Shown here: positions 585 to 3,500 of the stretch, piece after piece
How the letters are laid out: every line of letters begins with the position of its first letter
Numbering within the stretch: position 1 is the stretch's first letter
NCBI RefSeq assembly: GCF_964355755.1
Contig: NC_092677.1
Coordinates: 22,927,175-22,991,174 of the forward strand
DNA length: 64,000 nucleotides
Reading direction: 5' to 3'
Source: Antedon mediterranea
Lineage: Eukaryota; Animalia; Echinodermata
Translations under genes and position numbers: made by a program
Notes under the pieces: model-generated
Seen by the model: the letters and a program-made list of their open reading frames with translations, nothing else
Database searches by the model: none
Told to the model about the DNA's origin: nothing

Positions 585-3500
585 GTAAGAAAATTAACAG
601 TTGTATAGACTGCAGCAGGCTTGGGCTATCAAAAGCTTTGTACACACTGCACTTTGCCAGGAAACGATGAACTATTCATGTCGGTTGGCTCAGCTTACAG
701 CAAAACTCTTGTTTGCTCCAGTAATTGCATTATAAGAGAATTTTTAGCAGAAACAATAATTGAGTAGCTTATTCAATTGAATGTCCGCATTAAAATTATA
801 CGATGACTAAAGCTCTGTCTACACTTTTAAACTAGTTTGACAAAAAACGTATGACGTTCCCAAATATGGTAGTGATATGCCCAAATATGGTACTGATATT
901 ACATCATCATGTCCATATATTGAAGTGGTAAATAAAGTGAAACTGAATATATGGGCACTTCACATTTTTTGTCACATAAAGTTGTGTAGACAGAGCTTTA
1001 AAACATGGTTTATGTTTGATGACGAATATAATTTGTTATTACAGATATCAATGAATGTGCCAGTCTTCCATGTCAAAATGGGGGTTTGTGCTTGGATGGT
1101 GTTAATCAGTACACATGCCAGTGTTCTGCTGGCTGGTTTGGAACCCACTGCGAGTTAAGTAAGTTGCATACTTTATGTCAAACTTTAGTCTCATCACCCA
1201 AGTCTTCTGGTAATCATGGCAATATTTTGAATCTGTTTTGTATTTACAAAAAAATAATCTTGATACTGTATAATTTTACCATTATTTTAGTTTTAATACT
1301 AGTCTCATTATGGTTAACCAAAGACGAAAAATTTATTTACGACAATTTATTGACATATTCTATGCTTGGAAAATGCCTGTAAATGCTGATTATTTGTTAT
1401 AAGATAGCAAATTCGGAATGAAATGATATCAGCAAGAACATATTAGCGTGTAGAAGAAATTTGAATATGTGAAATATTGATGTGCGTCCTTTTAAATGTG
1501 ATGAACTATTACGCAAAAGATGAAAATACGATATTTTTTATTTAACTGGCCATATGATAACGTCACAACATCCGATTGGCAAAATGTTCACATGAGCTTT
1601 CCCAACTTCTGAAGGTTCTGTTCATGACTTTTAATTTCTTTTAAAATTCAAGGTTTTTCCTTCTGTCAAGGAATTATATATCTATGTTATATGTGGCCAT
1701 TCCTTGTTTTTGTGGGGTTTACCACTAATCTTTTAGTTCGAACCCCACCAGGATCCGCCACTGCATACTTTTACCCCACTCACACATACAAAAATGTGAC
1801 CCAATGGTTCTTTTATTTTAAAATGTGTGGAGAAACTAATAAAACAAACAAACATAGTAAACATGCATGGGGGAAAGTTTTTTACCATTGTTCAGTAAAT
1901 CTTCCCAGTTTTAGCAAGTAGTTGAAGCAAGCACACTAAAATACTAATAAAAGCATACCCAAACAAGATATCAAACTTTTTTAAGCAATGGATATGCCAT
2001 CTTTTTTGTGACTATGGGTGAACTGAGTTATTAGCTCAAAGTCCTAAACTTATATTACGACTTAATATACTTGTAATGAAATTGATGGGGTTAGCCAACA
2101 ATTTGGTTTGTAGTTTGTTTCAAATAAATGATTAAAATGAGTTATGGTTTTCATTTTCAGATATAGATGAATGTGCAGGTTCACCTTGTGCTAATGGTGG
2201 TACATGCTTAGATGGTGTTAATGGCTATTTTTGTCAGTGCGCACCTGGTTGGACTAATTTCAACTGTGATTTTAGTAAGTACAAAAGTATACTGCGGTAA
2301 TTCTACTTTGATTTTACTTACTGGAATATATTTGAAATATGGTATAGCATCGACTCACAAAGAGTATTACTAGACTTAATATACTTGTAATGAAATTGAT
2401 GGGGTTAGCCAACAATTTGGTTTGTAGTTTGTTTCAAATAAATGATTAAAATGAGTTATGGTTTTCATTTTCAGATATAGATGAATGTGCAAGTTCACCT
2501 TGTCCTAATGGTGGTACATGCTTAGATGGTGTTAATAGCTATTTTTGTCAGTGCACACCTGGTTGGACTAATTTCAACTGTGATTTTAGTAAGTACAAAA
2601 GTATACTGCGGTAATTCTACTTTGATTTTACTTACTGGAATATATTTGAAATATGGTATAGCATCGACTCACAAAGAGTATTACTAGACTTAATATACTT
2701 GTAATGAAATTGATGGGGTTAGCCAACAATTTGGTTTGTAGTTTGTTTCAAATAAATGATTAAAATGAGTTATGGTTTTCATTTTCAGATATAGAGGAAT
2801 GTGCAAGTTCACCTTGTGCTAATGGTGGTACATGCTTAGATATTGTTAATGGCTATTTTTGTCAGTGCGCACCTGGTTGGACTAATTTCAACTGTGATTT
2901 TAGTAAGTACAAAAGTATACTGCGGTAATTCTACTTTGATTTTACTTACTGGAATATATTTGAAATATGGTATAGCATCGACTCACAAAGAGTATTACTA
3001 GTTTTACCCATTAAATAGTACATATTGTTATGCATAGAATGCAAAACAGTGTGGACCAAAACATTTTGTACATACATCCTTGCCGGTTTGGTTAAAATTT
3101 AGTCATTTATTATCTTTTCAGATATTAATGAATGTGCTTCAACACCTTGTCAAAACGGAGCGACTTGTTTGGACGGAATTAACTCCTACTTTTGCCAGTG
3201 TGCACCTGGATATACTGGAACATTATGTGAAACTAGTTAGTTCTAAAAGTTTGCTTATTTCATAAATAATGAATGCTTTCTTTCAATGAAAAACGCTGCT
3301 CTACCATTTTTTTTACTATTTTTTTTTTGCTTACATATATTGAAGCTTCATACTTATCTATCTAGTCTATTATTTCATGTTGGTAGAAATAGTGGTTTGT
3401 GTATGTATAGTGTTTTGTTTTGGATATGCAAATTTGTTTATTTACAAATTTGCATATTCAAATATAATGCAAATGCAACAACATTTAGGTGTTATTCTAC

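What the first reader, a model, noticed from the sequence alone, without database searches (positions are those of the whole stretch)
2059..3001. Exons diverge faster than introns: 7 of 7 substitutions are non-synonymous and introns are identical
Seen: across the three 314-bp units I found no differences in the 200 bp of intron per unit. The 114-bp exons differ at 7 nt: GAT/GAG (D/E), GGT/AGT (G/S), GCT/CCT (A/P), GGT/ATT (G/I, 2 nt), GGC/AGC (G/S) and GCA/ACA (A/T). None is silent and none touches a Cys. Neutral drift would put about 64% of changes in introns, and purifying selection would favour silent ones. Inference: positive selection, exon-targeted conversion from other copies, or an exon-directed mutational process.
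Basis: partly seen in the sequence, partly recalled or inferred. Interest (0 to 1): 0.8.

Follow-up and report, generated by a model that had tools for sequence, protein, structure and literature searches.

The report
Young triplicated feather-star EGF exon
Three side-by-side copies of one EGF exon in a likely feather-star cell-surface receptor gene have identical introns but six amino-acid changes; this is likely a very young triplication whose copies were likely kept different by selection, but chance is not excluded and the changes were not seen in independent sequencing contigs.

Summary
Three 314-bp units (2059-3001) differ at 7 nt (6 codon events), all in the 114-bp EGF exon and all non-synonymous; the introns show none. 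The exon skew is unlikely locally (P 0.001-0.004); the non-synonymous skew alone is not significant (P 0.15-0.27). The exons belong to a crinoid hyalin-like EGF-HYR-transmembrane gene, spliced in another sample. Contigs of three same-sample libraries and of that other sample carry the majority allele at all 7 sites, so each change is likely derived and private and the triplication young. None of the 7 variants appears in those contigs, which drop variants, so they stay unconfirmed. The pattern does not repeat in the gene's other young duplicates (exon 9/351 versus intron 31/1328; pooled N:S 17:5, neutral). The six changes hit six different codons, two in conserved motifs. Best reading: diversifying selection after a recent triplication (0.42); rivals: chance plus ascertainment (0.33), assembly or somatic variants (0.10), unseen donors (0.09), exon-directed mutation (0.06). 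The pattern is published for silk, venom and brown-algal ROCO genes, and this scan noted larger ankyrin and LRR cases in the same genome.

The parts
2059..3001 (+). Tandem triplication of a 314-bp exon-intron unit (3.0 copies); introns identical
2161..2274 (+). EGF exon C1 (cbEGF-like, phase 1-1); private change S>G at 2178, at the Ser of the C1-X-S-X-P-C2 O-glucose motif
2475..2588 (+). EGF exon C2; private changes A>P (2504), G>S (2537), A>T (2555)
2789..2902 (+). EGF exon C3; private changes D>E (2796, calcium-binding consensus position, recalled) and G>I (2842-2843); its 3' end is spliced to exon D in X5
172..1595 (+). Block with EGF exons A1 (471-584) and B1 (1045-1158), identical over 1424 of 1424 bp to 5020-6443; end of a likely 4848-bp tandem duplication that extends upstream of the window
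3122..4312 (+). Older EGF exons D (3122-3235), E (3744-3857), F (4199-4312); D-E and E-F joints are GT..AG in X5 contigs
5020..6443 (+). Second copy of the A/B block (exons 5319-5432, 5893-6006)
8779..12072 (+). G family: four copies of a 117-bp EGF exon (8779-8895, 9888-10004, 11199-11315, 11956-12072) with duplicated introns; used as the internal control
12203..26464 (+). Further predicted single EGF exons (near 12203-12334, 13966-14145, 16988-17143, 17653-17766, 26351-26464); splicing not shown
30224..30463 (+). Predicted HYR-domain exon (Pfam HYR E 5.9e-16; 77% identical to the best crinoid hyalin-like hit)
32584..32674 (+). Predicted transmembrane exon, resembling the membrane segment of crinoid hyalin-like proteins P0001 and P0024
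42461..42650 (+). Predicted last coding exon: 62-residue cytoplasmic tail with three tyrosines, weakly similar to the tails of P0001 and P0004

Best explanation
One 314-bp EGF exon-intron unit of a likely feather-star EGF-HYR membrane receptor gene stands in three copies, likely from a very recent triplication, and the six private amino-acid changes in the copies were likely kept by selection for repeats that differ, while the introns likely match because too little time has passed for neutral change. Shown: the three units and their differences; the majority allele at all 7 sites in contigs of the same and of another sample; splicing of this exon in the other sample; EGF and HYR domains. Inferred: that the majority sequence is ancestral; that the duplication used the short shared sequence at the unit ends (slippage or unequal crossing-over); that EGF, HYR, membrane and tail exons form one transcript; that the protein is a surface recognition or adhesion receptor; and that selection, not chance, fixed the changes.
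For: P(6 of 6 events in exon) 0.001-0.004; joint with non-synonymous 1.5e-4 to 6e-4; lower 95% bound on the exon/intron rate ratio 2.7. Nine 31-mers of the majority unit occur in none of the three assembled units nor elsewhere in the window, yet X1, X2 and X3 each assemble the unit as one 315-bp majority contig. So an unchanged copy likely exists in the same animal. X5 has the majority at all 7 sites and one C piece in a 598-bp contig, and its one own change in this exon is also non-synonymous (F>I). The gene belongs to a crinoid-expanded family with varied domain order and is full of recent duplications. 0 of 17 pooled non-synonymous changes hit Cys (P about 0.03, rough), so the exons are still under selection. 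Unreviewed scan notes report larger arrays with this pattern in the same genome (a lead only, not tested here).
Against: N:S 6:0 is not significant (P 0.15-0.27). No replication inside the gene: A/B block 0 of 1424 differences; G family exon 9/351 vs intron 31/1328 (P 0.46; pairs not independent); X5 alleles 5 N to 3 S; pooled 17:5, P 0.47-0.73. Older repeats show purifying selection (pN 0.25-0.38 vs pS 0.62-0.94). The six changes fall on six different codons with no recurrent site. D>E is seen in 0 of 200 EGF cores and S>G removes a predicted O-glucose site, which looks more like unfiltered mutation than tuning of a binding face. Six selected changes in under 0.5% of neutral divergence (upper bound from 0/600) need strong selection. 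0 of 7 variants were seen in 4 runs' contigs.
Confidence: 0.42

Rival explanations
1. Chance plus ascertainment: a young triplication with relaxed constraint on redundant repeats collected six ordinary mutations that happened to fall in the exons, and the scan picked it out because it looks odd.
For: The exon skew is a 1 in 260 to 1 in 940 event, and this one window already holds at least four exon-bearing young duplications (C, A/B, G, membrane exon), so a genome plausibly offers hundreds of trials (inference, not counted). N:S fits neutrality in C, in G and pooled. The changes are scattered and move toward rare residues (5 of 6 derived residues at 5.5% or less among 200 EGF cores). The other duplicates of the gene show no exon excess.
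Against: The joint probability with non-synonymous changes is 1.5e-4 to 6e-4. The one further change in this exon, in X5, is also non-synonymous. The genome-wide number of such arrays was not counted.
Confidence: 0.33
2. The variants are not germline: assembly or consensus errors, or somatic changes caught in the assembled reads, over an array of identical units.
For: 0 of 7 variants in contigs of three same-sample libraries, while other allele contigs (502; 661-713) did survive in them. Unit depth is 1.97-2.11 times the flank, which fits four identical units over two flanks.
Against: Contigs drop variants (tool statement; a difference at 4158 also shows one letter only). Unit depth of 3.9-4.6 times a typical contig also fits three variant units plus two majority units (4.39) better than five identical (5.0); the tool warns that depth is no copy number. 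Random errors would not avoid 600 intron bases either, and errors copied from paralogous exons would likely include silent sites.
Confidence: 0.1
3. Exon-limited conversion or unequal exchange from unseen near-identical donor copies or alleles of this exon carried standing amino-acid variants into the array.
For: At least one more copy of the unit likely exists in the animal, and the gene continues upstream of the window. Per-copy exon divergence from the majority (7/342, 2.0%) is like allele divergence in X5 exons (10 differences in table 8 over six 114-bp exons, about 1.5%).
Against: No donor for any of the six changes in the window (17-mer search, up to 3 mismatches; one non-exonic chance match; one search finds only the three copies). 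No co-converted silent sites. Alleles differ freely in other introns (7 substitutions at 661-713, a 39-nt replacement at 1732-1736), so borrowed alleles should bring intron changes.
Confidence: 0.09
4. An exon-directed mutational process (for example repair templated by spliced RNA, or a deaminase guided by exon chromatin or methylation) mutates exons faster than the adjacent introns.
For: All changes are exonic. 5 of 7 start from a G on the coding strand although G is 28 of 114 exon bases (noticed after the fact).
Against: Such a process should also hit silent sites: 0 here (weak, about 1.5 expected). Only 1 of 7 is at a CpG. The A/B block and the G family show no exon excess. No mechanism was tested.
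Confidence: 0.06

Closest known systems
Spider silk genes with iterated near-identical introns: Argiope MaSp2 (PMC9779670, passages read) and Nephila Flag (Hayashi and Lewis 2000, not read; as cited in PMC3563967 and PMC9779670, passages read)
   Same: Tandem exon-intron units inside one gene with introns near identical within the gene (97.6% on average in MaSp2); PMC3563967 notes a similar higher-change pattern in Flag exons versus introns.
   Different: Those arrays are large, and in MaSp2 the exons are also strongly homogenised; slippage in simple motifs is the proposed cause. Here three units, point changes only, and no sign that introns were homogenised rather than simply young.
[quoted passage not shown]
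   Same: One repeat per symmetrical exon, rapid exon duplication, candidate recognition receptors.
   Different: There diversifying selection was reported on the repeat domain, with inverted and inactivated exons. Here dN/dS>1 is not shown, no codon changes twice, and no inverted EGF exon was found (one search scanned both strands).
Snake three-finger toxin genes with exons changing faster than introns (PMC2474615, passages read)
   Same: Introns alike, exons different, cysteines kept.
   Different: That is between genes of a family and involves whole segment switches; here it is inside one gene and involves isolated point changes.
Crinoid hyalin-like EGF/HYR membrane proteins (Antedon mediterranea, Anneissia japonica; P0001, P0002, P0004, P0024)
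   Same: HYR domain 53-77% identical; membrane segment and tyrosine-bearing tail similar; P0024 has EGF repeats, HYR, membrane segment and tail in the same order; P0011 has three near-identical EGF repeats.
   Different: This gene has far more predicted EGF exons (19 EGF-like stretches or more in the window) and one HYR exon found; no orthologue was found, and the family's function is untested.

Membership tests
EGF-like domain, calcium-binding type | Six-cysteine EGF pattern above the Pfam EGF cut-off | tested here: met
   PF00008 35.6-41.5 bits vs cut-off 21.5 for all 3 of 3 units
EGF-like domain, calcium-binding type | EGF_CA profile above its cut-off | tested here: inconclusive
   PF07645 23.9, 26.8 and 24.0 bits vs cut-off 27; the D-I-D-E-C start and C-x-D-x4-Y motif (recalled consensus) are present in C1 and C2, and C3 has E for the second D
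EGF-like domain, calcium-binding type | Calcium binding | not testable with these tools
   needs a binding assay
Crinoid hyalin-like HYR membrane proteins | HYR domain closest to crinoid hyalin-like proteins | tested here: met
   Pfam HYR E 5.9e-16; top 4 of 36 hits are Antedon proteins, 66-77% identical
Crinoid hyalin-like HYR membrane proteins | Membrane segment and tyrosine-bearing tail downstream | tested here: met
   32584-32674 and 42461-42650; splice sites predicted
Crinoid hyalin-like HYR membrane proteins | EGF array and HYR/membrane exons in one transcript | not tested
   X5 contigs were laid only on 440-4440; linkage inferred from strand, order, phase and P0024
Hypervariable one-repeat-per-exon receptor arrays (Ectocarpus ROCO type) | One repeat per symmetrical exon in tandem | tested here: met
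   114-bp phase 1-1 exons, spliced in X5
Hypervariable one-repeat-per-exon receptor arrays (Ectocarpus ROCO type) | dN/dS above 1 | tested here: inconclusive
   C alone 6:0 (P 0.16-0.26); pooled 17:5 (P 0.47-0.73); older repeats pN below pS
Hypervariable one-repeat-per-exon receptor arrays (Ectocarpus ROCO type) | Variation concentrated at a few recurrent codons | tested here: not met
   6 events at 6 different codons; the X5 change is at a seventh; small sample
Concerted evolution with homogenised introns (Flag, MaSp2 type) | Introns near identical within the gene | tested here: met
   0 of 200 columns vary
Concerted evolution with homogenised introns (Flag, MaSp2 type) | Array older than its intron identity (within-species identity with between-species divergence) | tested here: inconclusive
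   the related organism's runs X6 and X8 gave no cover of the unit's introns at 80%; X5 shows one C piece and the majority allele, which points to a young array instead

The most novel reading that the evidence does not exclude
Feather stars have a process that mutates or converts exons of repeat-cassette receptor genes while sparing the introns between them (for example repair templated by spliced RNA, or an exon-guided deaminase); this triplet is a fresh trace of it, and the larger ankyrin and LRR arrays noted elsewhere in this genome are its older products.
Probability: 0.05. Interest if true: 0.85.

Novelty: new member of a known kind. Interest (0 to 1): 0.3.

Why it matters
If selection is the cause, this catches repeat diversification at its start: a likely young, probably still polymorphic triplication in an uncharacterised crinoid receptor family, with the ancestral allele still present for comparison. 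It would extend the exon-cassette diversification noted for ankyrin and LRR genes of this genome to an EGF receptor. With six events and no read-level confirmation it is a lead, not a result; its main use is as one data point in a genome-wide exon-versus-intron census, which would also test for an exon-directed mutator.

Tried and rejected
No whole genome is held for the window, so paralogs, the upstream part of the gene and a census of arrays could not be examined. No RNA holder was listed as such; X5 behaves as spliced RNA. The related organism's runs X6 and X8 showed no cover of the unit's introns and only short matches near the exon, so no cross-species test was possible. Depth bookkeeping fits both 'three variant plus two majority units' and 'four identical units' and is not used as proof. 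Orthologue searches: the EGF query found only generic EGF proteins, best core identity 72%; the tail query found 0 of 9 candidates and one chance hit among 1.84 billion representatives (P0060, E 9.9e-4). The metagenome scan found 0 matches. Scan look-ups by place, sequence, relatives and one by words found nothing; one search gave one abalone note that I did not use. Rejected: CpG deamination as the cause (1 of 7 sites); GC-biased mutation as the cause (exon share rises only to 0.40); donors inside the window; counting 7 independent events (GG>AT is one codon). A Poisson figure printed treats the exon rate as known and was not used. Paper searches with no hit: (Antedon + HYR + EGF); the library lacks most subscription papers, and no supplements were read.

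Full report
Observation. The array spans 2059-3001 as three 314-bp units. Seven of 314 columns vary; all lie in the 114-bp exon and none in the 200 intron bases. They form six codon events (D>E, S>G, A>P, G>I, G>S, A>T), each private to one unit, none silent, none at Cys. The statistics need splitting. The exon skew has P 0.0023 for six events, 0.003-0.004 with GC weighting or without splice bases, and 0.0011 given no stop, Cys or splice hit. The non-synonymous skew has P 0.15-0.27, because 74-80% of exon sites are non-synonymous. The finding is therefore an exon-versus-intron effect resting on six events, with a lower 95% bound of 2.7 on the rate ratio.

The gene. The three exons score as EGF domains above the Pfam cut-off and just under the EGF_CA cut-off. 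They sit among many phase 1-1 EGF exons on the + strand. Downstream lie a predicted HYR exon (30224-30463), membrane exon (32584-32674) and 62-residue tail with three tyrosines (42461-42650). The HYR domain's best matches are hyalin-like proteins of the feather stars Antedon mediterranea and Anneissia japonica (top identity 77%, 36 hits among 101 candidates), and P0024 has the same EGF-HYR-membrane-tail order. That the exons form one receptor transcript is inferred. That it is a recognition or adhesion receptor is inferred from the layout; no paper in the library holds Antedon, HYR and EGF together.

Independent sequence. Ten runs hold part of 1600-4440; I laid six. X1, X2 and X3 (one sample) each assemble the unit as a single 315-bp contig with the majority letter at all seven sites; no contig shows a variant. 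Nine 31-mers of that majority unit occur nowhere in the window, so the animal likely has at least one more, unchanged copy, in the upstream segment copy or on the other haplotype; the alternative is that an assembled variant is wrong. X5, another sample, has GT..AG joints C-D, D-E and E-F, so the exons are spliced. It carries the majority at all seven sites, one own change (F>I), and only one C piece in a 598-bp contig, not preceded by exon B (the tables are cut, and exon skipping or contig simplification could give the same picture). I infer that the majority is ancestral and the triplication young. The introns then need no homogenising mechanism. The variants remain unconfirmed: contigs drop variants, but two allele contigs did survive nearby (502; 661-713). 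Unit depth is 1.97-2.11 times the flank and 3.9-4.6 times a typical contig, which fits four identical units (4.0) or three variant plus two majority units (4.39); the tool warns that depth is no copy number.

Internal controls. The 1424-bp A/B block differs at 0 positions, exon or intron. The four G exons differ at 9 of 351 exon and 31 of 1328 intron bases over three pairs that are not independent (P 0.46), with 6 non-synonymous and 2 silent distinct changes. The eight X5 exon differences listed in table 3 are 5 non-synonymous and 3 silent; one of the five (3793) may come from a paralog, and two further differences near contig ends were not listed and are left out. Pooled N:S is 17:5, as neutrality predicts (P 0.47-0.73), with 0 of 17 at Cys (P about 0.03, rough). 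Older repeats A-F have pN 0.25-0.38 and pS 0.62-0.94. Alleles differ freely in other introns. So the pattern is confined to the C triplet.

Nature of the changes. They hit six different codons. Among 200 EGF cores of the same spacing from the fetched proteins, the derived residues occur at 0% (E), 5.5% (G), 4% (P), 3% (I), 14% (S) and 3% (T). S>G removes the Ser of the C1-X-S-X-(P/A)-C2 O-glucose motif, while the O-fucose motif stays in all three units (motifs from PMC8950332, passages). D>E alters a position of the calcium-binding consensus (recalled). No donor exon is in the window. One of seven sites is a CpG; five start from G (noticed after the fact). The unit ends share a short sequence with the array's entry, which suggests slippage or unequal crossing-over (inferred).

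Mechanism. I commit to a recent triplication followed by selection that keeps the copies different (0.42). The joint pattern is hundreds of times likelier under a 5- to 10-fold excess of amino-acid changes than under neutrality (my arithmetic), the gene family turns over fast, and the exons still avoid Cys changes. Chance plus ascertainment is close behind (0.33): this window alone has four exon-bearing young duplications, the controls do not replicate, and the changes look unfiltered. Non-germline variants (0.10), unseen donors (0.09) and an exon-directed mutator (0.06) stay open.

Comparison. Near-identical introns between tandem exons are published for Argiope MaSp2 (PMC9779670, passages) and Nephila Flag (second-hand through PMC3563967, passages). 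Exons diverging between similar introns with cysteines kept are published for viper three-finger toxin genes (PMC2474615, passages). One-repeat-per-exon receptors under diversifying selection are published for brown algae (PMC3341825, passages; PMC11378527, abstract and outline). Searches found no paper; some searches gave listings. Unreviewed scan notes describe ankyrin and LRR arrays of 8-24 exons with this pattern in the same genome; I did not test them. The triplet resembles those arrays but fails the test of recurrent hypervariable codons and leaves dN/dS open.

Verdict. A real pattern in the assembly, a small sample, a known kind of phenomenon, no read-level confirmation and no replication within the gene. 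New member of a known kind; interest 0.3.

Noticed in passing
window 172-1595 and 5020-6443: Identical 1424-bp blocks mark a likely 4848-bp tandem duplication of the EGF exon set C-D-E-F-A-B; contigs of X1-X3 enter 1593 from other upstream sequence, and the join at 1595/1596 cuts a high-copy repeat. No listed contig spans the join.
   Followed up: partly
window 32190-32679: The predicted membrane exon is duplicated (242-bp unit, about 90% identical); the first copy (32340-32432) has a 2-nt shift and an early stop, so it must be skipped or would give a form without a membrane anchor.
   Followed up: partly
window 18229-26853: Pao/BEL-type LTR retrotransposon on the minus strand inside an intron: terminal repeats 18356-18910 and 24977-25531 differ at 3 of 555 bases; coding region in two open frames (Peptidase_A17, DUF5641, integrase, DUF1759); 18229-18355 recurs exactly at 26727-26853.
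   Followed up: partly
window 8712-12129: Four copies of a 117-bp EGF exon with mosaic introns: 9080-9447 nearly equals 11500-11867 but differs about 5% from 10744-11110; the youngest-looking exon pair differs by 3 non-synonymous and 0 silent changes.
   Followed up: yes
window 42887-46571: Element with long inverted arms made of 154-bp tandem units, just after the predicted stop codon; likely a DNA transposon.
   Followed up: no
window 12682-13274: Perfect intronic tandem duplication of 296 bp, 0 differences.
   Followed up: no
window 9433-9822 and 50505-50891: A 390-bp dispersed repeat, 96% identical, one copy inside the G-exon region.
   Followed up: no
P0011 (Antedon mediterranea hyalin-like): A family member with three near-identical tandem EGF repeats, so young EGF duplications recur in this family; its introns could not be fetched.
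   Followed up: partly
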